Source: a virus
Taxonomy: Duplodnaviria; Heunggongvirae; Uroviricota; Caudoviricetes
IMG/VR virus record: IMGVR_UViG_3300013902_000267
DNA: 64,000 nucleotides
Direction: 5' to 3' (one strand)
In this document: one piece after another, positions 20,643-62,187 of the stretch
Numbering within the stretch: the first letter of the stretch is position 1
How the letters are laid out: every line of letters starts with the position of its first letter
Notes under the pieces: generated by a model
The model's input: only the letters and a program-made list of their open reading frames with translations
Databases searched by the model: none
What the model was told of the DNA's origin: nothing
Program-made: the position numbers and the translations under genes

Positions 20643-21344
20643 TTATTTTGATAAAGTACAATTATTAAAGAAAGTACAATATGATATATTAACTATATCA
20701 TTATATATAATTGTATCAACAAGTTCATCATATCTCAAAAGAGATGCTATGAAATTTTTATTATTCTGAAATTTAACACCTGGTTGCAATATCTTCGTTT
20801 CATAATGCATCCATATATTAACATTATTAAACTTATTTTTTAATATATCTATATACTTATGATAATCATCAAATGTATTAAATACACCTTTAAATAATGT
20901 ATCTATTATGTTAATATCATTGAAATCAACACTATTTAATAAATTTAATTCATCTGTATTACATGTTTCATATATTACATTATTATCTTTATCATATGAT
21001 TTTGTATTATATAAAATAAGTTGTATATCCTTTTCAGTTGTATTAATTATTTTTATATTTCTAACTATCAACGGACATGATATAATATATGATATAGGAC
21101 ATAGTATGCAGTTCTTTTTAATATTACTATCAAATATTAATGTAACACCACCATCTGAATATTCTATATCATCTATATTATGAACAATATTAATGTTTAT
21201 ATTATAATCATTCTTTTGTTTCTTTAATTTCAGTATATCATCTTTCCATCTTTTGAATTCTAATTCTCTTTGTTCATTTAGAACCTTTGAACCAACAGAT
21301 TCATTATTTACTATGTTATCAAATTCTTCGTCAAATAAATTCAT
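20643..21344 (-). CDS. Hypothetical protein
   Basis: 233-aa ORF. Confidence 0.4.
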   Translation of the reverse strand: MNLFDEEFDNIVNNESVGSKVLNEQRELEFKRWKDDILKLKKQKNDYNININIVHNIDDIEYSDGGVTLIFDSNIKKNCILCPISYIISCPLIVRNIKIINTTEKDIQLILYNTKSYDKDNNVIYETCNTDELNLLNSVDFNDINIIDTLFKGVFNTFDDYHKYIDILKNKFNNVNIWMHYETKILQPGVKFQNNKNFIASLLRYDELVDTIIYNDIVNISYCTFFNNCTLSK

Positions 21345-21435
21345 ACCTTTTTAAAATTAATCAATAATTATATAGAAAAATGATGAAAAAGTTATATATT
21401 TTCTTAAAAATATTGATATTTTAACAATAAAAAAT

Positions 21436-21461
21436 GATTCCAGTAGAAGTATACTGGAATC
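21436..21461 (-). terminator. Terminator hairpin (GATTCCAGTA / TACTGGAATC) downstream of nrdD
   Basis: 10-bp perfect stem 30 nt beyond the nrdD stop codon. Confidence 0.5.
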
Positions 21462-21489
21462 ATTAAAATATTAAAATAAAATAGTTAAA

Positions 21490-24400
21490 TTAAATATTTT
21501 CTTTTGGTAAATAAACACGTGTCTTTTGTTCTTTCTGACGTCCATCAGACCAATTCGAAATTTTAGTTAAATCACAATATACCCGAACTTTCATTCTATT
21601 TTAAAGGGGTTAGACTATACCACTAACTTCTTGAGTTACATCTTGGTAGTCGTTGAGGGCTTTTATTTGTTTCGTATCAAATAACTATCCCTGCTGATTA
21701 TCCATTGTTATATCATTAGAATTTTTACACTTTGGTATCTAATGCTTTAGGAACTTCCAGCATATTCGATGTTTGCTATATATGTCACCATATATAGGGG
21801 CATTTAATTAAAAATTTACCCGATTATTCTGTCATATAAACTTACATGAACTGATCCACACTTTGGACATACACTAAATGGTGTCTTTGAAATATATCCA
21901 CAATCTTCACATTTACAATTAGGAACATTAAATGTCCAATATTGACAACCATTCTCTGCCGCAAATTTCATAATGTGAACAATCTGTTTCTTAGACAAGT
22001 GCTCTGACAAATTGAGATGCGCTGCTGAACCACCATCCAAAAAATCTCCAATATAGTTCTTACCATGTAAGGTAATCTTATCAAAGATTGACAATGTTTT
22101 ATCATTTGGTTTGAATATGTAAGACGCATACAGGTTAGTGTCTGTTGGTACCCAATCAACTCTGTTACATGATTACATAATAATTTTAATATTATTGTTG
22201 AATGTAATCTGATTTATTAATATATTCATTTAGATTTATTAAACCTGCATGAATTTTCCTATGACAATTTGAACATACACATACACATTTTTTTATTTCT
22301 TCATATAGTTTTTCTTTACCTCTCCCTCGATGTTTACCTATTGTAAAATCTTTTTCATTTGGATCTATATGATGAAAATCTATACAACATGGTTCATATT
22401 CACTACATATTATACATGGATTCTTTAATGAATATAACCATTCTGTTTTTCTTTTTTGTGAACGCTTATTTTTGTTCATTATGTATTTCAGGATGTGCTT
22501 TTCTCATCTATTTCCTATATAATTTTCTACATTCTTTACATACTGCACGTCCTTTTTCAAACATTTCTATAGACAATTCTTTACCACATTTATTACATAT
22601 TTTTGTTGTCATATATATTAAATTATGTTTTATTATTTATCACCGGAACATGACAAAAATAACATAACCCAATTATATTAATAAACGCTTAATTATTTCT
22701 AATCAAGTCTCTATGTTACCATAGAGTTCGGACTATTGCATAGTTTTGTTTCACAACAAAACTCCTTTTTATTTAGTCTCTCAGGCTGCCCATAACATTG
22801 TTGTTATTGCTTGCCCCTCGTTATCCTTACTACCGGTACCTAAGGTAATAAAATGTAAGGAACTTCGAGTCAATTAAAAAAGGTTTTACATGGACATTGT
22901 TATTGTTGTCTATCCATCTTCAGAATCCCAATTATAATTCTTTATTGCCAAACTTTCAGCTGGTATACATTCAGTATTGAACGTTAACTTATGACCGTTA
23001 AATGTACCTGCAGCTTCTTGATTCTTTTGCTTTATATATCCAAATATTGTTTGACAAAGTTTTTCATAATGAGGATTTACATTACAAGTAATTCCTAAGA
23101 ATTCTGCCATTTGATTAAGACCATTCAAACCAATTGTTAAATATTGCTTATTCAAATTAATAAACCCTGCTTTATATACAGGTAATAATCCTGCGTCATA
23201 CATATCCCAAAGAAGTTCATTATATGCTGTATGATATTTATATACTCTATCAAGAATATTACCAAAATATTCGCACATATCATCATAATGCTCTTCTACA
23301 TTTTCTTTTGTTACTCCAGATTTCTTAACACTGTTAAACCAGTCTTGAGTTATGCGACTAAGATTCAGGGTTATCACACTTTTACTTCCTGTTTGACGTT
23401 TTCTCCATATATTTCTATATGGTCCGGGTCATATCTTATGTTTATTTAAATAATAAACATTGCACTATTTCGGCATTTAAAACGATTCGTTTCCTAAAAC
23501 GTTACTACGTATCAATAGTAGTCCTACTCCACCTGCTCATCACTTAGGGGATGACCTCCACACACATTAATAATTTTTATATGTTCTACCTATTAACATA
23601 TTCCTAAAATTATTCATTAAATAATTTTTATATTTACCGATTTTTAATTCTTCAATAGATTTGCCATTATTATATTGTTCTCTTAAATAAACAACTTCAT
23701 CTTTAGATAACAATGGTAACTTCTATTTACATTTATCAGTTCTAATAGGCATTTTTACATGCATATATGATTTTCCAAATAATATTTTATTAAATCCACT
23801 CCATGAATATAAATTACTATATTCTTTAAAAATATCATCTTCTTTTTCACCATTTACAAAATATCTTATTCTTATGTTTAATACTTCTTCATCAGATAAA
23901 TTCTTAGAATTTGCATGCATATTTCCTCTACGTGTTCTTCGATCTGATTTATAAAAATCATTTACTTTATCTGTATTATATTCTATACCAATTTCAGGTC
24001 TTGTATAATAATGCCAATATTTTGAAAATCCACTTTTTGACATTCTATCTTTATACATTTCATATACTTCTCCAAAAGTATATTTCATAGAATAACGTAT
24101 TTTTCTTAATTCTAATAATTCATTATCATTTAATATTGCTTTGGGATGCTCCTCCCCAACTTTTATTATAGTTGCAGAATGTCCACCCAATGTAGAATTA
24201 TATCCATTATTATAACTATCATATAATTTAATGTAATATATTTCTTTATTATCAGCTTCATCCTAATTAGGAACATTATCTTCTAATATTGAAAAATTTG
24301 ATTCATTAATATTATATTTTCTCATTGCTCTATATAATTTATAATCACTATGTTTCATATCATTTAAATGTTCTCTTACTCTTATATGATAATGATGTGT

Positions 24401-27400
24401 CTACCCAATATATACTTTTCCATTAGGAAATGATATTTTATAAATTGTAAATATTTTATTCATATATTATAAATGTAAAATTATAACATATTTATATTAA
24501 CTTGGCTCGGTATTACCATGCATATAGTTTCACAACTTATGTTTAGGCTTCACCGATGCATTAATATCGCTATATTAATACATTGCTTGATTAGCAATTA
24601 AGCACATAAAGGACCCAAGTTGATCCCTAAATTTCCATTTGTGAAGTTGAATTCCTTTGTTTGTATCTTATTCTTAAGTCTGCAGTTATGTGTTATATTT
24701 CCATTAGGCATTAAGAAATATGGTTCAAGATTCTTATCGCAGAGTTCTACACAATAATAATCTTTTGGTTCATCAAGATTTACAACTTCAACCTTTGTAA
24801 TTTTTCTTATAACAATGTCTTGATCTACATCTTTAAAATCATTTCTAAACATACCCATATATTGTCCATACTCAAAGATAAGTTGATCTCCTGTTTGAAG
24901 CAAATATGCTTGCTTATCTTTAATCATCTTATCATCATCAATAATAGGGAATATATGATCCGGTGTAACTCTCATTACATTTCGTGATTCATCCGGATTA
25001 AAATCGTCTGGAGCGAAATAAATTCTTACTTCTTGAACTGCTTCTGCTTTTACAAACTTAGCATTTACCCATTCACCTGTACATTTACCTGTTGTACCAT
25101 TAAAATTCATATGATATACATTAATAATTTCATCCTTATGCTTTTCATATGCATTTTTAAATGACTCAACCATATATGCGTTTGAACCTGCGTTTTCTTC
25201 CATATTACAAGGTTCTACATACATGAATGGAGTATCACCATCGAAACAACAACTTGATAATGAATCAACTGTATCTGACATATATGTAAAGAATGAATGA
25301 CCTCTTGCATATTCATCCGCCACAAAATCTGCAGATTCCTTATCAAGGAATTCTCCATCCTTATATACTAATGCGAAACTTTCCCATTTATATTCTATAT
25401 AGTTCGTTACACTATATACGTTCATAATAATGAACTGCTTTATGTTACCATAAAGATTAGACTATATCACAATCCTATAAATATAGGATTCTCCCCATTT
25501 CCACTCACTTGAGTGTACTTCCTTTCGGAATAGTCGTTGAACCTTATTATATAAATGAATATTTATGACCATAATATAATCTATTTGCATTTATCGATTT
25601 TACTAATCCTGATATACATGCAGTTCCTCCAATATTTTTAATAACTTCGGACATTGATGAATATATTATATTATTATCTAAACATTTTATTTTCTTTGGA
25701 AACGTTTTTCCCTTCATCGTATTACCAAATGTTTTAATAGAATATAATTCATTCTCTGATTGTGTGCACCATTCTAAATTATCTACTCTATTATCTGATC
25801 TATTACCATTTAAATGATTTACAAATGGTTTATTTTCAGGATTTGGTATAAATTCTTGAGCAACAAGTCTATGACATAAATATCTAGTTTTAATAGAATT
25901 TTGCATTAATGATATTCTTAAATAACCATCTAATGTATATTCTACTTTTAATGGTTTACCTTTATACGGACGTAATCCACCCCATCTACAAGGCACCATT
26001 CTATCTTTACTTCTGAAATTACCTAAATTACTAACTTCAAATGCGCCATCATATCCTGTTATACTTTTCCAAATTTCTTCCATAATATTCTCTTATATAA
26101 TCTTGGTTGCTGATTATCTAATAACTTCGCATATTTATTAGAGTTCCCAGCAGTTAAAGGAGTTTTTCAATAATAAATTACTTTATTATGCCGCAGATTG
26201 ATTTACGGGGAAGGTGATTATCGTACGAAGACGTTCCTTATTAAACCATATCATGAAGTCTTTCTGTAACCATGAAACACTTTCCCAACATGGTCTTGTT
26301 CCTTCTTCATCAGGAAATACAAATTCACCAAACATACCTTCAAAGAACGGTTTATCAAAATAAGAGAAATTTACAACATTTTTTCTTCTACATAAATCGT
26401 TACTTTATGTACGTTACTATTTGTAACTGCTCTATGATTTCCATAGACGATTAACGAATTTCACGTTAAAAGGGTTTGTTTAAACCGTTTAGACTATATC
26501 ACCAAATTTAATTTTCTTAAATTTGCACCTACACTTCCATAACACTTGTTATGTACTCTACTAACTCATTTAAAGTTTTCGATAGTCGTTGAACTTTTAT
26601 CCTTGTAGGATAATTAGCTGCGTATGATTACCCAATCTTTATCGTTTTTACAATCTGATAGCCGTTATACTATCTGCTACTATCTATGTTACCATGATAT
26701 GCTGTAGATAAAGCTCTAAGGGACTTCCCGCAATTCAAGGTGTTTATTAACGTCAGCACATGTAATTTCTCTTATAATTTAATTATTACCAAAATTATGT
26801 ATTTTATACATGTGACAATTTTTACAATATGTTATAAGATTATCTATGTTATTAAGTTCTTTATTTTTTATCGCTAAATTAAATAATTCATCAAAATTAT
26901 CAGTAGGATTTAATTCTGGATGTTCTGATAATAAATTATGAAATAATATTTTAAATGGAACTATATGATGAACTTGAAGATTTTCATGACAACCGCATAG
27001 CTAACAAGTATTATGATCTCTCTCTATAACTTCTGGAACTAATCGATTAAAATATGTTCTTATTTTATTACCTAATCTTGTAGTATCTGTTGTATATGGA
27101 ATATTAGTAATATTTAAACTATTTAATACTCTATTAATTACAGCTATTGTACAATTATATCTCCGTGCCAATTCTGTTTTTGATATTGACTATTCAATAT
27201 ATAAATTATATAATTTTTTATAATCATTAAAATCTTCTGGTATTTCTTTTTTATGATAATTCCACATAGATTCTGCAAAAGTACGTCTTTTAATCCCATT
27301 ATGTTTTAAATGACTTCTTATAGTAGTTGCTGAACAGTTAAATATTTTACCTATTTCTACTGTAGATTTACCATCATTATATAATTTTATTATTTCCTAA

Positions 27401-28901
27401 TCATTTGTATCATCATATTGTTCATAAACTTCATAATTAGTATTTTTTATATTATATTTTTTAAAATATCTATTAATAGTACCTTTATGACATTTATATA
27501 TTTCTGAAATTTCTTTCATTGTTAAACCATTATTAACATAATTTATTAAATCTTCTTTTTTAATTATTAATTTAGATTTTTCAATATTCCATTTTCTTAA
27601 ATATTCTTTAATATTTGCTAATGTTGTATTTCCTTCTTTAGCACACTATTTTCGTGTTAAACCTTTAATAACATAATTTTCATATAACCAATCTCTATCT
27701 TTTGTAAAATATCTATAATTAGACATAATTTCAGATATGTAAAATTACATACAGGATTATGTAATTTTTAATTTATTTTAGTTTATGCTGACTATAATCC
27801 TCTGGAGGCCGCAGGTTGGTTAATTGAATACACGACCTATTGAAAGAATTGTTGAATACATGAACCAATAGTTCTTGTACCATCACCTATCTTAATAGGA
27901 TTCGTAAAATCTTTTATTGAACCTTCAACATCATATTGTGATAATTCTTTCTCATATGCTTCAAGTTCTTCATCTGTTAACTCTCTTTCTGAATTATAAA
28001 CAAGTTCATCACGAAGTTTGTTTAATTCGTCTGAACCAAAATCATGTTTTCTCAATGTATCTACATCTTTACACCAATAATTAGATTCATTAAGAAGTTT
28101 CCTATATTTAGGCCCAATCTTATAAAATTCTTTACTATGCAAATGATAATCTTCACCAAACTCTTTTCTTGCAAAATAATCAAAATAAACAAGAAATTCC
28201 GATGTTGCAACTGCACCTGCAAATTGAGCAGCAACTGCAAATACAAGATTTACATACATACCACAATAAGAATCAAGATTTTGTGGATGACATGAAAGAC
28301 CTCCTATTTTTTCTAAACCATTATGAAGGAATGGATACATAGTTATACTTGTGCAATACGGACTTATGGCACCAGCGAAGCTAGACTCATCGTTCTTATA
28401 TATAATATGGTTTTTTAAATCTTTTTGATATTGTTTTGCTTTAAAATTTGGATATAGTTCTTTAAGTTTCCTTGTAATCATACCTCTGCTTACAAGAATA
28501 TTATCAGCTTTATGAATTTCAGCATTTAATACACCGATATTCTTAGAAGAAACATTAGAATTATCATCTACAGTACTATTTGCAGTATTAGATGCATTCT
28601 TATATCTTTCAATAAATGCTTCCTTATTAGCAACCCATTCTCTAATTTCCTTTTTCTTGTTACGATAAAGAATAAATTCTTTCGCAACTTTAGGATAATC
28701 ATGAGAATACAAACTTGTTTCAATTTGATCCTGTATTTCCTCTACAGGAATACCATCATATGGTGTTATTGAGTTTGCAATATTAGCTATAGTATCTTTA
28801 GTATACTTAGTTTTCGTAGACTTAAACGCCTCACGAATCGCTCGTTTAACTGTCTAAACACTATAGTTCTCAAAACTACCATCACGTTTCGTTACCTTCA
28901 T
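21490..28901 (-). CDS. nrdD: Anaerobic ribonucleoside-triphosphate reductase NrdD, split into about 6 exons by 5 intron-like insertions, with a mini-intein in exon 3. Approximate exons: 28901-27840, 26390-26205, 25425-24601 (includes the intein), 23415-22906, 22165-21819, 21578-21490
   Basis: Exon 1: ATP-cone-like N-terminus 'MKVTKRDGSFENYSV-Q-TVKRAI' and 'SPYCTSITMYPFL'. Exon 2: '...ERLRTIITFPV'. Exon 5: Zn-ribbon 'CEDCGY...CPKCGS' ending '...DRIIG'. Exon 6: 'YCDLTKISNWSDGRQKEQKTRVYLPKENI' completes the RxxGY glycyl-radical motif and resembles E. coli 'WNDGKQ..KDRV'. Intervening segments carry HE ORFs and RNA-like conserved blocks. Confidence 0.7.
21579..21818 (-). mobile_element. Intron 5 of nrdD: small (about 240 nt) ORF-less group I-like intron just after the glycyl-radical Gly codon
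   Basis: Exon 5 stops at TAA immediately after '...DRIIG'. The missing C-terminus resumes about 240 nt downstream in another frame. The intervening sequence has GC-richer structured blocks. I could not find a canonical ending at the 3' splice site. Confidence 0.5.
22166..22905 (-). mobile_element. Intron 4 of nrdD (group I-like), carrying a small HNH endonuclease ORF
   Basis: NrdD reading frames break on both sides. The internal HNH ORF is 22192..22479. Confidence 0.5.
22192..22479 (-). CDS. HNH homing endonuclease (small, 95 aa)
   Basis: 'CIICSEYEPCCIDFHHIDP...CSNCHRKIH' HNH zinc-finger motif. Confidence 0.65.
   Translation of the reverse strand: MNKNKRSQKRKTEWLYSLKNPCIICSEYEPCCIDFHHIDPNEKDFTIGKHRGRGKEKLYEEIKKCVCVCSNCHRKIHAGLINLNEYINKSDYIQQ
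23416..24600 (-). mobile_element. Intron 3 of nrdD (group I-like), carrying a GIY-YIG homing endonuclease
   Basis: Exon 3 ends '...GINLGPLCA' at TAA 24598. Exon 4 resumes after an in-frame TGA near 23415. Confidence 0.5.
23567..24463 (-). CDS. GIY-YIG homing endonuclease; TAG-recoded (3 TAG)
   Basis: 'IYKISFPNGKVYIG-Q-T' GIY-YIG motif with TAG at the conserved Gln. Continuous 299-codon frame from ATG (rc of 24461-24463) to TAA. Contains the track fragment 23723..24190. Confidence 0.7.
24685..25083 (-). other. Mini-intein (about 133 aa, no endonuclease domain) inside nrdD exon 3
   Basis: Begins 'CTGEWVN...'. Block B 'RVTPDHIF' (T-x-x-H). C-terminal 'YYCVELCDKNLEPYFLMPNGNITHN' followed by the extein Cys. 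Confidence 0.6.
25426..26204 (-). mobile_element. Intron 2 of nrdD (group I-like), carrying an HNH endonuclease
   Basis: Shares conserved blocks (TATGTTACCAT, GACTATA, TAGTCGTTGAAC) with the other nrdD introns. Confidence 0.5.
25547..26083 (-). CDS. HNH homing endonuclease (HNH_3 type, 178 aa)
   Basis: 'FEVSNLGNFRS' NUMOD-like N-terminus. 'HRLVAQEFIPNPENKPFVNHLNGNRSDNRVDNLEW' HNH_3 signature. Confidence 0.7.
   Translation of the reverse strand: MEEIWKSITGYDGAFEVSNLGNFRSKDRMVPCRWGGLRPYKGKPLKVEYTLDGYLRISLMQNSIKTRYLCHRLVAQEFIPNPENKPFVNHLNGNRSDNRVDNLEWCTQSENELYSIKTFGNTMKGKTFPKKIKCLDNNIIYSSMSEVIKNIGGTACISGLVKSINANRLYYGHKYSFI
26391..27839 (-). mobile_element. Intron 1 of nrdD (group I-like), carrying an HNH endonuclease with HTH repeats
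   Basis: Structured GC-richer 5' part (CTGGAGGCCGCAGGTTGG). 3' part has the conserved GTTTAGACTATATCACC and TAGTCGTTGAAC blocks. Confidence 0.5.
26779..27726 (-). CDS. HNH homing endonuclease with repeated HTH (NUMOD1-like) modules; TAG-recoded (4 TAG)
   Basis: C-terminal 'CQLCGCHENLQVHHIVP...CKNCH' HNH motif. Three '...KEISEIYKCHKGTINRY...' HTH-like repeats. 316-codon frame, invisible to the ORF track. Confidence 0.6.
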
Positions 28902-29038
28902 ACTTAGTTTTCTTTCTATTTTATTTTTGGTAAAATATTTATTCTCGACTATGAGAATTTTTCAAAATATTATTTTATATATTATATAAAAAAATGCAAA
29001 TGAAGTCTTATAACAAACATCATTTGCATTAAAATATT

Positions 29039-42043: not shown

Positions 42044-43555
42044 TTAATTAGTTTCATTTTCTGATGATTGTTCATCTTCAATATTAGTTATACCTGCATC
42101 TAATTCTTTTTCTTCCTTATTAACAAAACGATAGCACTTCAATTTGAATGCACGAGGTATCATATCATCTATTTTAATTACAACACCTTCATGTGGAACT
42201 TTATTATTACATTCAGGTGATAACATTTCCATATAAAAATTCTTATCACTTGACATCTTATTCCAAAAATTTTCGTGCCAATGATTAGTTATATCAAGCT
42301 CAGGATACAAATCTTTAGCTTTACCATAATAATATTCAATTACAGGTGTTAATTCATGTTGAATACACCATACTTGTACTTCTCGTGGTGAAAATTCATG
42401 TACATCTCCATCAACATTTGTTAAAGTAATACGATATATCATTATCTTAAAATGCTTTCCATATGTATACTCTTCACCAGACTTTAAAGGTACACATCCA
42501 TAATCATATCCCTTTTGTATATAATTATTATTTGGAAGATAACCTACAATTTCTGCATAAATCATCATTCCCTTTATCATGTGTGGCTTTAATACATTAA
42601 ATGCTTCACCCCATATATCAAAATTATAGAATCCCTTATGATATACATTACCATTTTTTTCAGATTCCTTCATTATATACTGGTTTTTTATAACAGTTCT
42701 TGATGAATATAAATAATCATAATCATTAAATTCATAACCTGTTAAAAATTTCGCAATTTTCTGCTTTATAGTTAATTGTTTCTTACATAAAACATAACCA
42801 ACACAAAGAGAAGTACCGTGCCATTTAGAACTTATATGTATATAATCATTAGGTTGAACAACAAATGGAACCTTCTTAACAAGTGCAGTGTCGTAATGGA
42901 ACCTAAATTGTTCTGGTATAACTCTGTTAAATCTCTTTAACTTTCGTTGTCTTCTCTTATATCTAGATTGATCACCTCCAGTTTTATTTCTCTTTATAAA
43001 TATCTTTGGTATAAATTTCTTTGATAACCAAAATGATTTACCATTATGTTCAATAGTATCAAACCATGTTCCATCCTTTATATCATTCTCATTAACTTCT
43101 ATATTAAAATTATCTAATATAAAATTAAGAACTACTTGTAATTCTATCAAGAAACCATCTGATACACCATTAGGTAAAAATACTTTTTCAACTTCTCCAG
43201 TAGATGGATCAATTTTATCCATTGTTGCTCGTAGTCTAATGGACTTCACTCTACCATTATCATCAAATAACCCAGTTTTATTAGGATTACTATTCATTTC
43301 ATTTTTACGATATAAATTAGCATATCTTAAAAATTCAGGATTTATTTGTGTACTTGATGGAAAGAATACATATTTTCCTGGTTGTGAATCCTTACTTACT
43401 ATAACATTATAAATTGTATCTCCACCTATTCTACAACACTTTAACTTGTTAACTTCAGGATTAGGATGTGGAGAGAAATCCTCTTCCTTGATATAAATTA
43501 CACGTGAAACATAATTAGGGTGTAATTCACTTTCCTTCGACTTAATAAACTTCAT
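42044..43555 (-). CDS. RNA ligase, Rnl2-like nucleotidyltransferase (KxHG motif I) with an N-terminal extension
   Basis: Motif I 'SSKWHGTS' resembles T4 Rnl2 'KIHGTN'. Motif IV 'HEGVVIKID'. Motif V 'AFKLKCYRF'. 503 aa. Confidence 0.6.
   Translation of the reverse strand: MKFIKSKESELHPNYVSRVIYIKEEDFSPHPNPEVNKLKCCRIGGDTIYNVIVSKDSQPGKYVFFPSSTQINPEFLRYANLYRKNEMNSNPNKTGLFDDNGRVKSIRLRATMDKIDPSTGEVEKVFLPNGVSDGFLIELQVVLNFILDNFNIEVNENDIKDGTWFDTIEHNGKSFWLSKKFIPKIFIKRNKTGGDQSRYKRRQRKLKRFNRVIPEQFRFHYDTALVKKVPFVVQPNDYIHISSKWHGTSLCVGYVLCKKQLTIKQKIAKFLTGYEFNDYDYLYSSRTVIKNQYIMKESEKNGNVYHKGFYNFDIWGEAFNVLKPHMIKGMMIYAEIVGYLPNNNYIQKGYDYGCVPLKSGEEYTYGKHFKIMIYRITLTNVDGDVHEFSPREVQVWCIQHELTPVIEYYYGKAKDLYPELDITNHWHENFWNKMSSDKNFYMEMLSPECNNKVPHEGVVIKIDDMIPRAFKLKCYRFVNKEEKELDAGITNIEDEQSSENETN
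42066..42092. repeat. 27-nt repeat (copy B, 3' end of the Rnl2-like gene)
   Basis: Identical to 40860..40886. Confidence 0.8.
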
Positions 43556-43657
43556 ACTAGATTTAATTTTATTTTCCTATGTCATTCTTTAGTTCGAGTC
43601 TCCACTACTCACGTATCACCAGATTATTTTTTAATAGGAAAATAATCAAACCTATTA

Positions 43658-43930
43658 TTAATATTTAGAAAACTGTTCATTCAGAACAGATAATTCTTTT
43701 TCTTTCTTAAAAATTAGCTTATCTAGGAAATCATCCATCATTCTCATTTCATCTTGATTTAGAATAATGTCAATATATGGTTTTCCATAATGATATGTTT
43801 GATAATCACTTTTCATTATCCATTCAATATCATGCAACTTTTTTAATTCTTTACATGCGGATATAATACCTTTAGTCTTTAATATTCTTTCATGTAAAGA
43901 ATTAATTTTTTTTAAAGTATCTTCATTCAT
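43658..43930 (-). CDS. Hypothetical protein
   Basis: 90-aa ORF. Confidence 0.35.
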   Translation of the reverse strand: MNEDTLKKINSLHERILKTKGIISACKELKKLHDIEWIMKSDYQTYHYGKPYIDIILNQDEMRMMDDFLDKLIFKKEKELSVLNEQFSKY

Positions 43931-43933
43931 AAT

Positions 43934-44425
43934 TTAAAATAGTTTAACGGACGCATTAGTATCCATTCTTTCCTTCATACCATTATTATAATAATCAGCC
44001 AAAATTTCAGCTTTAATTTTAGGTGACAATACTTTCCGTACTACATAATCATAATTAAAATTAAAGAATTCATTTATAGCTATTACCATTTCATATGCAG
44101 ATAATGTCTTCACCTCTGCTAATTTATTTTTCATGTAATAGAAGATTTTCCCTGTTTCTTCCTTAGGTATTTTTGGAACGACGAATGTAGATGTATCAAC
44201 TTTATATTGTTCTGCAAATGGAGATTCTATCCATATGCTATATAATTTTTCTGCTGTATCTTTCCTTTCATGCAACAAGACTATATCATCTGTCATCGCA
44301 TAATCATACTAATCTGCGACTAAAGGAGATACAGTCATTGTTTGACTTGAAAGATCTGCATTATAGTCTGAACTCGCAAAATACCCATCATTACTAAGCA
44401 TCTTCTATGTATTAATTCTTGCCAT
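43934..44425 (-). CDS. Hypothetical protein with a TAG-containing N-terminal extension
   Basis: The track ORF 43934..44296 extends in frame through two TAG codons to ATG (rc 44423-44425): 'MARINT-Q-KMLSNDGYF...'. Confidence 0.4.
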
Positions 44426-44491
44426 ATAATGTTTGATATTTTTTCTTTTACTATAATTATATGATAAAAATAGCAAATTGTTTATAATATT

Positions 44492-45682
44492 TTACATAGA
44501 AAATAAATCTTGTGCTTGTATTTGTGTTTCAGTTAATCCTAATTGCGGAGTACTCATAGAATCAGATGCACCGGGACGAATACCAACAGATGAAGAATAA
44601 TTATTTGAATTATTATGTTGGTAATTATTATCTCCTTTATGCTTATCTTTTACTAATCCATCCAATGAAACATTCTCAGGAATAATATTTTCCTCAAGAT
44701 TCTCTTCAATTCTTAAATATGTAGGATTAAAATCAAATTTCTTCTTATCTCCCATGTGTCCAGAATTACGTATTGCTACTGCTTTCAAATAATATGTATT
44801 ATCTACACGCATTAAAGATGACTGAATAATACCGAACAAACTATCAACAGTTGCGATAAGACCTCCAGATTCTGAAACGTTACTCATACCAATATCAGTA
44901 GAATCATATGCAGTTCTATTTGTCTGTGTTAATGATACAACACACCAATTATTTCTCTGAGCCATCGCACGAACATCCTCGCAGATAGATTTAATCTTTA
45001 AATATGTACTTTCAGAATTTGGATTCTTTGCGTCTTTCATAATATTAACATAATCAATGAAAATGTTCTTAAACTTAAATGGTTTATCTTCTGTAGATAA
45101 CTCTTCTTCTTGCTTAAGTAAGAATGACTCAATATCATAAACAGTTGCAGATGATGTAGGGAACTCTTCTATAATAAACTTACCTGGATTAATAAGTGAA
45201 TTCATATAAAATTCCTTCATTTTCTGCATCATAAGATTTGTGTCTGATGCATACTTATCATATTCTTCAATTGGAATATTAAAAAGATTTGAACCTATAC
45301 GTTGTGCTACAAGCTGATAAGCCATCTCCAATGTAATATATGCAGAATTCTCACCATTTCTTACAGAATTCGCACATAGGTTACAAAGCCACATAGATTT
45401 ACCAACTTTAGGTGACCCCATAAATACATTAAGAGTCTTATTTGCCCATCCGCCTTTCAAACATTGATCAACAAAATTATAACCTGTTTTCCTTGTTTCA
45501 AGTTCAGTTTGTTTATGATTAATTGGGTCAAAGAAATCATGTCCTTTAGAATTATTTAATGTAAAATTAGTTTCACTCTGAAATAATGATTTTATATGTT
45601 GTACAATTTCTGCACAATTTTCAAATGTAACTTCAGATTCTGTTGTCTTTACATATTCAATAACTCTTCGGAGACCTGTCAT
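44492..45682 (-). CDS. DnaB-family replicative helicase (C-terminal RecA-like domain)
   Basis: Walker A 'GSPKVGKSMW'. 'ITLEM'. Walker B 'IFIDYVNIM'. 396 aa. Confidence 0.6.
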   Translation of the reverse strand: MTGLRRVIEYVKTTESEVTFENCAEIVQHIKSLFQSETNFTLNNSKGHDFFDPINHKQTELETRKTGYNFVDQCLKGGWANKTLNVFMGSPKVGKSMWLCNLCANSVRNGENSAYITLEMAYQLVAQRIGSNLFNIPIEEYDKYASDTNLMMQKMKEFYMNSLINPGKFIIEEFPTSSATVYDIESFLLKQEEELSTEDKPFKFKNIFIDYVNIMKDAKNPNSESTYLKIKSICEDVRAMAQRNNWCVVSLTQTNRTAYDSTDIGMSNVSESGGLIATVDSLFGIIQSSLMRVDNTYYLKAVAIRNSGHMGDKKKFDFNPTYLRIEENLEENIIPENVSLDGLVKDKHKGDNNYQHNNSNNYSSSVGIRPGASDSMSTPQLGLTETQIQAQDLFSM

Positions 45683-45688
45683 TAAATT

Positions 45689-46000
45689 CTACCATTCGCC
45701 AAATGCTACTGTATTCTGTTCCAACCATTCATCTGTATATTGACTAACCATATCACGAGTTTGCCATAATGTATGAATTTGATCTTCTGTTACTTTATCA
45801 TCTTTAGCTGCTAATCTAATAAGATCTATTGTTTGTTGCTCAGTTGGTTCTGCTCTAAAATCTAATATATGCGGTTTAACCACATCAAATATAATTTTTA
45901 ATGCAGGATTAGTAAAATATCTTCCTTTAAAAGACTATACAAGATTTAAATTCTTAATTATATAAAAGAATATGACGTTTTCAAGATACGTATTATTCAT
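45689..46000 (-). CDS. Hypothetical protein with a TAG-containing N-terminal extension
   Basis: The track ORF 45689..45883 extends in frame through one TAG to ATG (rc 45998-46000). Confidence 0.4.
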
Positions 46001-46125
46001 AAATAAATTATTCTACCTTTGTTTTAATTTATAGTGAGTAAAAGTATTAAAGTTTATTAGCAATTCAAAAATTAAGAAAATTATATATAGTTTTGTAAAA
46101 CTATAAAAATTTCTCAATTTTTATA

Positions 46126-46938
46126 TCATTTTATTGGAATTTTTGATGTTTTTTCAAAGATTTTTCTATTGTTTTCATCATTAAGTATATACCCACTGTG
46201 AATAACAAATTTATCTCTATCAAACTCCCCATATTCATCTGATTTCATATGAACAGTTTCCTTATATACAAATCTTCCATATTTCTTTCCATCATCAAAT
46301 GTATTCCAATCAATATCAGTTGATTCTTTCAAAATATCTATAAGTTCATCTGCTTTCTTTGATGTACATTCCTTATGTGACAAATAAGTTCTTACTGTTT
46401 GTTGCTTGCTGTTTCTTATACAATCAAGTTGTCTATATAAGAACCATGTATAAACATCATTATATGATGGAACATTCCATGCTTTACAATCGAACTCATG
46501 TAATTTTATATTATTAATAATATCAATAAGTTCAGATTTACTGAATTGCTCTTTACATGTTCTATTAATTGCTTCAATAATCATTAATTGATTAAACTTA
46601 GATGTTGCCATTGATGCACATAGTGGTAATATTTTCTCCAATCTATAACCAAAAAATGAATCTGTTTCTGGTGTATCAAAATCCGTAATAACAAGAGATA
46701 TTTCATCTGACTGGACATATGCGAATTTACATCCTTGTATACATTCACATAAATATCTTGCGGTTTCATTCATAATATTAATGAATGTATCATCAAATGG
46801 TTTCTTGAAATATTTTTTAATGGTTGATGAAAATGATCTACCGTCTAACATAACCATTACATAACTATTTGGCATTAACTTATAATCTGTTAAACCACGA
46901 AGATATAGCATTCTATCTTCAATATTCTTAAATTTCAT
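46126..46938 (-). CDS. Thg1-like 3'-5' nucleotidyltransferase (tRNA-His guanylyltransferase family, TLP)
   Basis: 'VMVMLDGRSFSSTIKKYFKKPFDD' resembles Thg1 'VVVRLDGRNFHRF..KPND'. 'AYVQSDEISLVI' resembles 'AYGQSDEYSFVF'. The track ORF starts at 46980; the ATG at 46938 is more plausible. Confidence 0.6.
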   Translation of the reverse strand: MKFKNIEDRMLYLRGLTDYKLMPNSYVMVMLDGRSFSSTIKKYFKKPFDDTFINIMNETARYLCECIQGCKFAYVQSDEISLVITDFDTPETDSFFGYRLEKILPLCASMATSKFNQLMIIEAINRTCKEQFSKSELIDIINNIKLHEFDCKAWNVPSYNDVYTWFLYRQLDCIRNSKQQTVRTYLSHKECTSKKADELIDILKESTDIDWNTFDDGKKYGRFVYKETVHMKSDEYGEFDRDKFVIHSGYILNDENNRKIFEKTSKIPIK

Positions 46939-62091: not shown

Positions 62092-62187
62092 TGGATATAG
62101 ATGGACTCGAACCACCATGTATCTGCCCTAGAATTATGATACAAACTAACATCATATTAGTCGCGTTTACCATTTCGCCATATATCC
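62092..62187 (-). tRNA. Type II (long-variable-arm) tRNA, about 96 nt. The anticodon loop TATGATG gives TGA (Ser) if canonical, but position 33 is atypical
   Basis: Acceptor GGATATA/TATATCC. T-arm GGTGG-TTCGAGT-CCATC. Anticodon stem ACTAA/TTAGT. Unusually long variable arm (stem TGTATC/GATACA with a 14-nt loop). Confidence 0.45.

What the first reader, a model, noticed from the sequence alone, without database searches (positions are those of the whole stretch)
21490..21818. Glycyl-radical C-terminus of NrdD sits on a roughly 90-nt terminal micro-exon behind a small ORF-less intron
Exon 5 ends ...DRIIG followed immediately by TAA. This truncates the essential RxxGY glycyl-radical motif right after the Gly. 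The remainder (Y-CDLTKISNWSDGRQKEQKTRV...) appears about 240 nt downstream in a different frame. Only RNA splicing, or an unusual recoding event, can restore an active enzyme. Insertion exactly at the radical Gly codon is a striking target choice. I could not place a canonical ending at the 3' splice site, so the intron type and exact boundaries are open.
Basis: partly seen in the sequence, partly recalled or inferred. Interest (0 to 1): 0.65.

Follow-up and report, generated by a model that had tools for sequence, protein, structure and literature searches.

The report
Small group I intron in nrdD
A 245-base self-splicing-type (group I) intron without a gene of its own interrupts the anaerobic ribonucleotide reductase gene of a Lak megaphage right after the codon of its radical-bearing glycine; it is real and has normal splice sites, but it is an ordinary example of something phages are known to do.

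Summary
The window is Prevotella megaphage Lak-B DNA. The conserved tail lies on an 83-nt last exon.

The sister phages Lak-A and Lak-C have no intron here and read DRIIG-Y-LTKISNW. The Lak-B intron is therefore 21817..21573 (245 nt). The 5' exon ends in U, the intron ends in G (omega-G), and the spliced product is DRIIGYLTKISNW. "YCD" is intron sequence.

One internal guide sequence, UUAAAU|GCCC, pairs with both exons (P10 of 6 bp, P1 of 4 bp with U.G). Helices P1-P9, including the P3/P7 pseudoknot, are supported by covariation:
- 8-sequence seed: 94.7% of cells paired.
- 110 distinct relatives from viral contigs: 93.3% paired.
- No shuffle reached either value (0 of 500).

Homologous introns sit at the same G|Y junction in at least two other phage nrdD lineages. 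Some of those carry an HNH endonuclease gene.

dN/dS for the exons is 0.06, so the gene is under purifying selection. Splicing itself was not observed. Group I introns splitting phage nrdD are already documented, so this is a new member of a known kind.

The parts
21818..22154 (-). nrdD exon 5. It ends ...GAC AGA ATA ATC GGG T (DRIIG plus the first base of the Tyr codon). The last base, U at 21818, is the 5' splice-site U.
   Evidence: tblastn with the MT835492 NrdD; alignment to intron-less Lak-A1; Pfam NRDD
21816..21818 (-). In-frame TAA made of the last exon base plus the first two intron bases. It stops ribosomes on unspliced RNA at the intron border.
   Evidence: Sequence. Same-site relatives have TGA at the same place. 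The function is inferred.
21573..21817 (-). Group I intron, 245 nt, no endonuclease ORF, 32% G+C.
   Evidence: Exactly this stretch is absent from Lak-A/C. Own CM scores 208.8 bits. Rfam RF00028 scores 24 bits, E=2.6e-4, below the gathering score of 50. Covariation.
21798..21807 (-). Internal guide sequence UUAAAU|GCCC. GCCC pairs with exon GGGU (21821-21818) to form P1 with U.G at the splice site. UUAAAU pairs with 3' exon AUUUAA (21572-21567) to form P10.
   Evidence: Read from the sequence. P1 is also in the unconstrained MFE fold. P1 covaries across relatives in other genes.
21776..21797 (-). P2 hairpin, 9 bp, GUGA (GNRA) loop.
   Evidence: 8 of 9 pairs have double changes in the seed alignment.
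21657..21771 (-). P3 5' strand (21771-21768) and the P4-P5-P5a-P6-P6a domain. P4 is UGCUGG/UCAGCA, within the conserved elements AAUAUGCUGGAA and AAUCAGCAG.
   Evidence: Rfam aligns model positions 60-148 here.
21612..21653 (-). P7 (A21653, bulged C21652, GACUA 21651-21647, paired with UAGUCU 21617-21612), P3 3' strand GAUG (21642-21639) and the P8 hairpin (21638-21624).
   Evidence: P3, P7 and P8 covary. For example CAACGACUA...UAGUCU alternates with CAGAGACUA...UAGUCC.
21573..21609 (-). P9 (CCCC 21609-21606 with GGG 21584-21582), inner hairpin GAAU-GAAA-GUUC (21596-21585), and the 3' tail UAUAUUGUG ending in omega-G at 21573.
   Evidence: A conserved module ...N4-GAAA-N4-GGGUAU-N3-6-G|exon is present in relatives, and the inner stem covaries. 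The MFE fold contains it.
21490..21572 (-). nrdD exon 6, 83 nt: the last two bases of the Tyr codon, 26 codons (LTKISNWSDGRQKEQKTRVYLPKENI) and TAA.
   Evidence: Colinear with Lak-A1 and 25 homologues. dN/dS is 0.2 for this exon and 0.06 for E5+E6.
21433..21464 (-). Terminator-like hairpin (13 pairs) with a T-run, 26 nt after the nrdD stop codon.
   Evidence: 1 found against 0.2 expected.

Best explanation
The 245 nt at 21817..21573 (minus strand) are a compact, endonuclease-less group I intron in the nrdD gene of a Lak-B megaphage. It is inserted after the first base of the Tyr codon of the glycyl-radical motif R-I-I-G-Y.

Proposed mechanism. In the pre-mRNA the guide sequence GCCC pairs with the exon end GGGU (P1, U.G wobble at the cleavage site). 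Exogenous guanosine bound in P7 attacks after U21818. The adjacent guide segment UUAAAU then pairs with the 3' exon AUUUAA (P10). Omega-G21573 enters the G site and the exons are ligated to ...AUC GGG UAU UUA ACU..., giving NrdD with DRIIGYLTKISNWSDGRQKEQKTRVYLPKENI.

On unspliced RNA the TAA formed at the junction stops ribosomes before they enter the ribozyme.

The intron is a derivative, without an endonuclease gene, of a lineage that occupies the same junction in other gut phages and there carries an HNH_3/AP2-type endonuclease gene in P9.

Shown: boundaries, pairings, covariation, homology, purifying selection on the exons.
Inferred: catalysis and splicing in vivo, the role of the stop codon, and the loss of the endonuclease.
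For: - Boundaries. All 9 Lak-B genomes carry the insert and all 6 Lak-A/C genomes lack exactly it. The exons join as DRIIGYLTK, the reading found in 25 continuous homologues and in the proteins retrieved from the 120 best database hits.
- Splice-site rules. The 5' exon ends in U, the intron ends in G, P1 has 4 bp with U.G, and P10 has 6 bp directly abutting P1 on one guide sequence.
- Structure on the seed alignment. My hand-drawn P1-P8 structure on 8 homologues gives 94.7% of cells paired and 28 of 47 pairs with double changes. No shuffle reached this (0 of 500), and slid controls give 35-47%.
- Structure on the large set. On 110 distinct CM matches from viral contigs, 93.3% of cells are paired and 44 of 47 pairs have double changes, again 0 of 500.
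- Unconstrained MFE folding recovers P1, P2, P4-P6a, P7, P8 and P9.
- Rfam Intron_gpI matches P4-P7 at E=2.6e-4.
- blastn links core pieces to introns in Staphylococcus phage Twort-like phages and Bacillus phages AR9/PBS1, and to an annotated Intron_gpI in Clostridium phage phiCD211.
- Homologous same-site introns occur in MT835492 and in IMG/VR contigs L049, L075 and L016, where NrdD is only 44-68% identical.
- dN/dS between Lak-A1 and Lak-B is 0.06.
- Precedent: small ORF-less group I introns splitting nrdD in gut jumbo phages have metatranscriptome-supported splicing (PMC12880540).
Against: - No transcript data were available, so splicing was not observed.
- No protein with the spliced Lak-B C-terminus was found among the 5.8 billion database proteins; the best hit is the Lak-A type at 89%.
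- Rfam does not reach its gathering score (24 against 50 bits), and it found nothing when the region was searched inside a larger stretch.
- The folding-energy z-score is only -1.54.
- The nine Lak-B copies are identical, so there is no covariation within the lineage.
- The large alignment was fitted to my own model. P3, which was not in the model, pairs in only 60-77% of cells there.
Confidence: 0.9

Rival explanations
1. The intron is a decayed, non-splicing relic, and Lak-B nrdD is a pseudogene or makes a truncated, inactive NrdD that ends at the radical Gly.
For: No endonuclease gene, no transcript evidence, and the gene carries four more introns plus an intein. Rfam is below threshold.
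Against: Every core helix and conserved element is intact. The exons show dN/dS 0.06 against Lak-A1, with dS saturated in exon 5. The tail exon keeps its frame, stop codon and terminator. All nine Lak-B genomes keep the arrangement.
Confidence: 0.05
2. Gene in pieces: the tail is translated separately from the ATG at 21594 (MKVRVYCDLTKISNW..., 34 aa) and associates with truncated NrdD, as in the split NrdA of Aeromonas phage Aeh1.
For: An ATG-started ORF, 21594..21490, exists in the tail frame. Split but functional phage RNRs are known (PMC3653736).
Against: That ATG lies inside the P9 inner hairpin. In same-site relatives the equivalent frame is closed by a stop (ERV*KDLTKISNW), so the ORF is not conserved. 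The split would leave the radical Gly as a free C-terminus. The ribozyme core, P1 and P10 would have no explanation.
Confidence: 0.02
3. Recoding: ribosomes bypass about 240 nt from GGG-UAA to the downstream GGG (T4 gene 60 style), or read through or frameshift.
For: GGG followed by a stop upstream, and a second GGG (21584-21582) downstream.
Against: Landing on the second GGG gives G-Y-I-V-I-stop, not the conserved tail (read). The gap is about five times that of gene 60 (own knowledge). That GGG is a conserved P9 strand in relatives inserted in unrelated genes. TAA is not the reassigned codon in Lak phages; that codon is TAG (PMC6784885).
Confidence: 0.01
4. Group II intron or another insertion element with target-site duplication (the repeat TCGGGTA at both ends).
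For: TCGGGTA occurs at 21823-21817 and at 21585-21579.
Against: Removing one repeat plus the insert gives the wrong frame (IGYIVI*). The intron is 245 nt, does not start with GUGYG, and no Rfam group II match was found. The second copy is the P9 strand shared with relatives that have other exon contexts.
Confidence: 0.01

Closest known systems
Same-site group I introns in nrdD of other gut phages (GenBank MT835492; IMG/VR contigs 3300045988_070932, _109994 and _079855)
   Same: The 5' exon is identical (...AUUGGGU|) and so is the 3' exon start (|AUUUA...). The guide sequence is the same (GCCC). P2-P9 are homologous with compensatory changes. A stop codon is formed at the junction.
   Different: The IMG/VR copies hold a 256-aa HNH_3/AP2 endonuclease ORF in P9. 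MT835492 (308 nt) keeps only the last ~25 codons of that ORF. The Lak-B copy keeps none and is the smallest. None of these records is annotated as an intron.
Small ORF-less group I introns splitting nrdD and terL in Jug jumbo phages and crAss-like phages (PMC12880540; PMC7886860)
   Same: Gut phages of Bacteroidota. Many ~200-nt introns plus inteins and homing endonucleases fragment nrdD. Splicing is supported there by metatranscriptome reads.
   Different: A different phage clade. Lak phages have so far been reported to have only tRNA introns (PMC6784885). The insertion sites are not given in the text I read, so I could not check whether they are the same site.
Phage T4 nrdD (sunY) group I intron with I-TevII
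   Same: [quoted passage not shown]
   Different: The T4 intron lies mid-gene: the CDS spans 43535-46385 with I-TevII at 44836-45612. It is about 1 kb (own knowledge) and encodes a GIY-YIG endonuclease. It is not at the glycyl-radical motif.
Staphylococcus phage Twort / Bacillus phage AR9-PBS1 / Clostridium phage phiCD211 group I introns
   Same: blastn similarity of 74-86% over conserved core segments (P4, P7-P9). The Twort nrdE introns also sit next to catalytic residues (PMC3653736).
   Different: Other host genes (terminase, DNA polymerase and others). Twort-type IA2 introns have P7.1/P7.2 (own knowledge). Here only CCAA separates P7 from P3', so there is no room for them.
Compact IC3-type tRNA introns (Azoarcus, Anabaena)
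   Same: A similar size and helix set (P2, P5/P5a, P6/P6a, P8, P9) with GNRA loops on P2 and P9. One family member (L053) lies in a tRNA anticodon loop.
   Different: The resemblance is recalled from memory and was not tested with subgroup models. The subgroup remains unassigned.

Membership tests
Group I intron | The 5' splice site follows a U that forms a U.G wobble in P1 with an internal guide sequence | tested here: met
   Exon GGGU (21821-21818) pairs with GCCC (21801-21798), with U21818.G21801. U.G is the commonest pair at this column in 110 relatives, and the other P1 pairs covary.
Group I intron | The intron ends in guanosine (omega-G) | tested here: met
   Alignment with intron-less Lak-A1 fixes the 3' end at G21573, or 1 nt later if slid over the shared A. 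Relatives end ...GGGUAUAAAAG(G)|.
Group I intron | P10: the guide sequence also pairs with the start of the 3' exon | tested here: met
   UUAAAU (21807-21802) pairs with AUUUAA (21572-21567), 6 of 6 Watson-Crick pairs, directly 5' of the P1 segment. MT835492 has only 4 bp, by eye.
Group I intron | Conserved core: P4-P6 domain and P3-P7-P8 domain with the P3/P7 pseudoknot, supported by covariation | tested here: met
   94.7% paired; P3 4 of 4, P8 4 of 5 and P6 2 of 3 pairs with double changes; 0 of 500 shuffles; 93.3% paired on 110 sequences, against 33-42% for slid controls.
Group I intron | Guanosine-binding P7 with a bulged nucleotide and conserved flanking elements of R/S type | tested here: met
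   UCAACGACUACC and GGUAUAGUCU form P7 with bulged C21652. The closing pair switches A-U to G-C together with the bulge context. That this site binds G is inferred from the family.
Group I intron | Match to Rfam RF00028 at the gathering score | tested here: not met
   No hit at gathering, and none in the 7.7-kb search. The intron alone scores 24 bits against a cut-off of 50, E=2.6e-4, covering P4-P7 only. This is a curators' threshold for one model, not a defining property.
Group I intron | Self-splicing with guanosine cofactor; ligated exons in RNA | not testable with these tools
   No transcript data. The protein database holds no spliced Lak-B C-terminus.
Mobile (homing) group I intron | Intron-encoded homing endonuclease | tested here: not met
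   No ORF above 65 codons, even with TAG read as sense. Relatives at the same site do encode an HNH_3/AP2 protein.
Group II intron | More than ~400 nt, 5' GUGYG, domain V/VI, 3' AY | tested here: not met
   245 nt, starts AAAUUU, ends GUG, and has no Rfam group II match.
Translational bypass (T4 gene 60 type) | Matched take-off and landing codons that restore the conserved downstream frame | tested here: not met
   Going from GGG to GGG gives GYIVI* instead of the conserved tail.
NrdD (class III RNR) glycyl-radical domain | C-terminal R-x-x-G-Y motif following a Zn-ribbon, colinear with solved NrdD structures | tested here: met
   The spliced sequence matches Pfam NRDD to profile position 560 of 562. 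It aligns to 4COI residues 549-635 with RIIGY on RIVGY (G at chain position 621).

The most novel reading that the evidence does not exclude
The G|Y junction of the NrdD glycyl-radical motif is a recurrent homing site of one lineage of compact group I introns with HNH_3/AP2 endonucleases. The two Lak alleles would then be the two sides of an intron/endonuclease conflict. Lak-A/C keep an uninterrupted site with a free-standing HNH gene inserted directly downstream of nrdD. Lak-B carries an endonuclease-less intron that splits that site and lacks the HNH gene. This resembles the 'collaborative homing' described for cyanophage psbA (own knowledge), with the intron acting as protection against cleavage.
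Probability: 0.15. Interest if true: 0.45.

Novelty: new member of a known kind. Interest (0 to 1): 0.25.

Why it matters
- Annotation. Lak-B nrdD, read naively, looks truncated at its radical glycine. With the correct splice sites it encodes a complete enzyme.
- Lak phage biology. In the literature I could read, only tRNA introns had been described in Lak megaphages. This gene carries five group I introns and an intein. Such elements may account for part of the 'large, highly expressed intergenic regions' noted for these genomes, but I did not test that.
- Practical lesson. The P9 strand GGGUAU near the 3' end mimics the Gly-Tyr codons of the exon and can mislead exon calling.
- Wider field. 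Beyond these points the result adds no new principle. Catalytic-site insertion of group I introns in phage RNR genes is well known.

Tried and rejected
- Rfam at gathering score on the whole window, and at E<=10 on 21300-29000, found no group I hit. Only the isolated intron gave a sub-threshold match.
- Target-site-duplication reading of TCGGGTA: wrong frame after excision.
- Bypassing from GGG to GGG: wrong frame.
- Folding energy against shuffles is not significant on its own (z=-1.54).
- I searched 5.8 billion proteins for a spliced Lak-B C-terminus, which could have come from an assembled transcript or an intron-less Lak-B allele. None was found. The short hits I suspected of ending at RIIG turned out to be N-terminally truncated but continuous across G|Y.
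- L120 (5' exon ...AGATTATGTGGGT|) looked like another RLCG|Y site, but tblastn finds no NrdD there.
- Subgroup assignment (IA2 or IC3) could not be tested because no subgroup models were available.
- The T4 nrdD intron is not at this site.
Full report
WHERE THE WINDOW COMES FROM
The region 21400-22200 is 100% identical to six Prevotella megaphage Lak-B genomes (B1, B2, B4, B7, B8, B9) and 99.1% identical to B3, B5 and B6. The gene in question lies on the minus strand.

THE OBSERVATION
The ORF 22094..21816 ends ...CPKCGSVHVSLYDRIIG and is followed at once by TAA. A 34-codon ORF, 21594..21490, reads MKVRVYCDLTKISNWSDGRQKEQKTRVYLPKENI. Joined, the pieces match Pfam NRDD (PF13597) up to profile position 560 of 562 (E=1e-22). 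tblastn with an uninterrupted homologue (MT835492) finds six nrdD pieces in the window:
- 28406-27732
- 26374-26204
- 25371-24613
- 23392-22913
- 22154-21819
- the tail

The two pieces are in different frames. No ORF of at least 30 codons was listed on the plus strand inside the intron, and the longest open stretch in any of the six frames is 65 codons, even with TAG read as sense.

THE TRUE BOUNDARIES
The six Lak-A1, A2 and C1 genomes match the same query in two DNA pieces that are 238 nt closer together. At protein level they match as one continuous piece. Lak-A1 reads ...GAC CGT ATC ATT GGA TAT TTA ACT AAA ATT TCG AAC TGG... = DRIIGYLTKISNW.

Lak-B has ...ATC GGG T|AAATTTTT...TATATTGTG|AT TTA ACT AAA ATT TCG AAT TGG. 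This fixes the following:
- The intron is 21817..21573 (245 nt).
- The 5' exon ends in U (21818).
- The intron ends in G (21573).
- The product is DRIIG-Y-LTKISNWSDGRQKEQKTRVYLPKENI.

All 25 continuous homologues recovered from viral contigs read R[IVP]IGY[LI]T, and so do the retrieved proteins from the 5.8-billion-protein library. The spliced sequence aligns with Thermotoga maritima NrdD (4COI), placing RIIGY on RIVGY with the Gly at chain position 621. That G621 is the radical glycine is my own knowledge.

WHAT KIND OF INTRON

Guide sequence. One internal guide sequence, UUAAAU|GCCC (21807-21798), pairs with both exons. GCCC pairs with exon GGGU to form P1, with the U.G wobble at the cleavage site. 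UUAAAU pairs with the first six bases of the 3' exon, AUUUAA, to form P10.

Relatives. blastn of the intron alone links its core segments to introns in Staphylococcus Twort-like phages and Bacillus phages AR9/PBS1, and to a feature annotated Intron_gpI in Clostridium phage phiCD211.

Seed alignment. I took eight compact members, made an alignment (A2) and drew P1, P2, P3, P4, P5, P5a, P6, P7 and P8 by hand.
- 94.7% of cells form standard pairs.
- 28 of 47 pairs carry changes on both sides.
- No shuffle out of 500 reaches any of the five measures.
- Sliding the partners by 1-3 columns gives 35-47% paired.
- P3 and P7 cross, which is the group I pseudoknot.
- The closing pair of P7 switches A-U to G-C together with its bulge context (CAACGACUA...UAGUCU against CAGAGACUA...UAGUCC).

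Larger set. A covariance model from this alignment (R1) finds 121 matches in 100 sources. On the 110 distinct rows, 93.3% of cells pair and 44 of 47 pairs have double changes. One caveat: that alignment is fitted to the model. P3 was not in the model and pairs in 60-77% of cells.

Other support.
- Unconstrained MFE folding of the Lak-B sequence recovers P1, P2, P4, P5, P5a, P6, P6a, P7, P8 and P9, although the energy z-score is only -1.54.
- Rfam's Intron_gpI finds nothing at gathering or in a 7.7-kb search. On the isolated intron it aligns P4-P7 at 24 bits (cut-off 50), E=2.6e-4.
- The 3' end (P9 CCCC/GGG, inner hairpin GAAU-GAAA-GUUC, then UAUAUUGUG) is a conserved module...N4-GAAA-N4-GGGUAU-N-G|exon. 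It is shared with relatives in unrelated genes, and its inner stem covaries.

Subgroup. Only CCAA separates P7 from P3', so there is no room for P7.1/P7.2. The helix set with GNRA loops on P2 and P9 recalls compact IC3 introns. That resemblance is from memory and was not tested, so the subgroup is unassigned.

SAME-SITE RELATIVES AND HISTORY
MT835492 (an unannotated human-gut phage) has an otherwise uninterrupted nrdD that ends WDRIIG + TGA. It is followed by a homologous 308-nt intron and then |ATTTAACAAAAATTTCTAACTGG.

IMG/VR contigs L049 and L075 (the same lineage) and L016 (NrdD only 44% identical) have the intron at the same junction. In L049 and L016 P9 holds a 256-aa ORF with HNH_3 and weak AP2 matches. 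L075 is cut off soon after the core, so its P9 was not seen. MT835492 retains only the last ~25 codons of that ORF.

The endonuclease frame runs into the 3' exon frame, and in the relatives it is closed by ...ERV-TAA. Lak-B reads KVRV-TAT at the same place, which is why an ORF appears to run from the intron into exon 6 there.

L031 has a related intron two codons upstream (DRV|IGY). Of 29 nrdD C-terminal loci in viral contigs, only the two Lak-B-type contigs are interrupted here. The T4 nrdD intron lies mid-gene, not at this site.

IS THE GENE ALIVE?
Between Lak-A1 and Lak-B, exons 5 and 6 together show dN/dS = 0.06, with pS 0.64 and pN 0.08. The tail exon keeps its frame and stop codon, and a terminator-like hairpin follows it 26 nt later. 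This argues against a pseudogene. The separate-peptide idea (ATG at 21594) is not conserved, because relatives have a stop in that frame, and that ATG lies in the P9 hairpin. Bypassing from GGG to GGG gives the wrong frame.

HOW IT MOST LIKELY WORKS
Standard two-step group I splicing, guided by P1 and P10, restores the RIIGY motif. The TAA formed by the last exon base and the first two intron bases stops ribosomes at the border. The same position is TGA in the same-site relatives. From what is known of T4 introns (own knowledge), this keeps ribosomes from unfolding the ribozyme. These steps are inferred, because no RNA data were available.

COMPARISON WITH WHAT IS KNOWN
- RNR genes are the most often intron-split genes in phages, and nrdD was the most commonly split RNR gene in one survey (PMC3653736).
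- Jug jumbo phages have nrdD fragmented in 95 of 104 genomes, with group I introns that average ~206 nt genome-wide and metatranscriptomic evidence of splicing (PMC12880540).
- crAss-like phages show the same pattern (PMC7886860, as cited there).
- For Lak phages, the founding paper reports only tRNA introns and large expressed intergenic regions (PMC6784885).

The finding is therefore a correctly recognised but ordinary group I intron: a new member of a known kind. The site choice at a catalytic residue is typical rather than striking.

RESIDUAL NOVELTY
The G|Y junction is occupied in at least three divergent NrdD lineages. Among the 15 complete Lak genomes there is a perfect split. Six (Lak-A/C) have the intron-less site plus a 1.3-kb spacer with an HNH ORF directly after nrdD. 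Nine (Lak-B) have the intron and no spacer. This amounts to two clades, so effectively n = 2, and it is only a lead towards an intron/endonuclease conflict.

Noticed in passing
window 21490-28712, minus strand: nrdD is split into six exons by five introns: roughly 27731-26375, 26203-25426, 24597-23393, 22912-22155 and 21817-21573. Several hold ORFs: NUMOD4+HNH_3 at 26083-25547, an HNH-like Cys/His ORF at 22479-22192, and 24190-23723 with no Pfam hit. My intron model gives weaker hits at 26211-26093, 22913-22721, 26728-26626 and 25575-25450, so the other introns also look like group I.
   Followed up: partly
window 25248-24685, minus strand: A mini-intein of about 188 aa (CFDGDT...ITHN, then +1 Cys) interrupts NrdD at the conserved SSC|C motif, with a weak Pfam Intein_splicing match. 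Lak-A1 has it too. MT835492 and L031 have a larger intein at the same site, and L049 has none.
   Followed up: partly
window 27837-27839, minus strand: An in-frame TAG in nrdD exon 1 (CAA TTC TTT CAA TAG GTC GTG) aligns with Gln in Lak-A1 (FFQQVVYS). This fits the TAG reassignment (code 15) reported for Lak phages. The table-11 ORF list cuts the exon there (PMC6784885).
   Followed up: partly
L001 3409-4753 (Lak-A1, MK250015 461210-462554), compared with window 21345-21489: All six Lak-A/C genomes carry a 1.3-kb spacer with a 239-aa weakly HNH-like ORF directly downstream of the intron-less nrdD. Lak-B has only a 145-nt spacer there and instead carries the intron. This may be a case of free-standing endonuclease against intron.
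   Followed up: partly
L053 12409-12628, minus strand: A member of the same intron family sits in the anticodon loop of a tRNA gene on a 184-kb viral contig.
   Followed up: no
L137-L141 around 1501-1902: These nrdD genes have an in-frame stop in the table-11 translation at two positions where homologues have Trp (L*DRIIGY, KN*SSG). This suggests a stop codon read as Trp in those contigs. I did not read the codon itself.
   Followed up: no
window 62092-62187, minus strand: Rfam calls a third tRNA with a 25-nt insertion after the anticodon arm (45 bits). ARAGORN does not report it. It may be the intron-containing or long-variable-arm tRNA noted for baboon Lak phages (PMC6784885).
   Followed up: no
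window 21490-21572 compared with 21818-22154: Synonymous divergence between Lak-A1 and Lak-B is much lower in exon 6 (dS 0.35) than in exon 5 (dS about 2.4, saturated). The counts are small, but a recombination or co-conversion tract next to the intron site is possible.
   Followed up: no
L031 2534-3486, minus strand: A related intron with an HNH_3-type ORF lies two codons upstream in the same motif (DRV|IGY). The 5' exon again ends in GGGU.
   Followed up: partly
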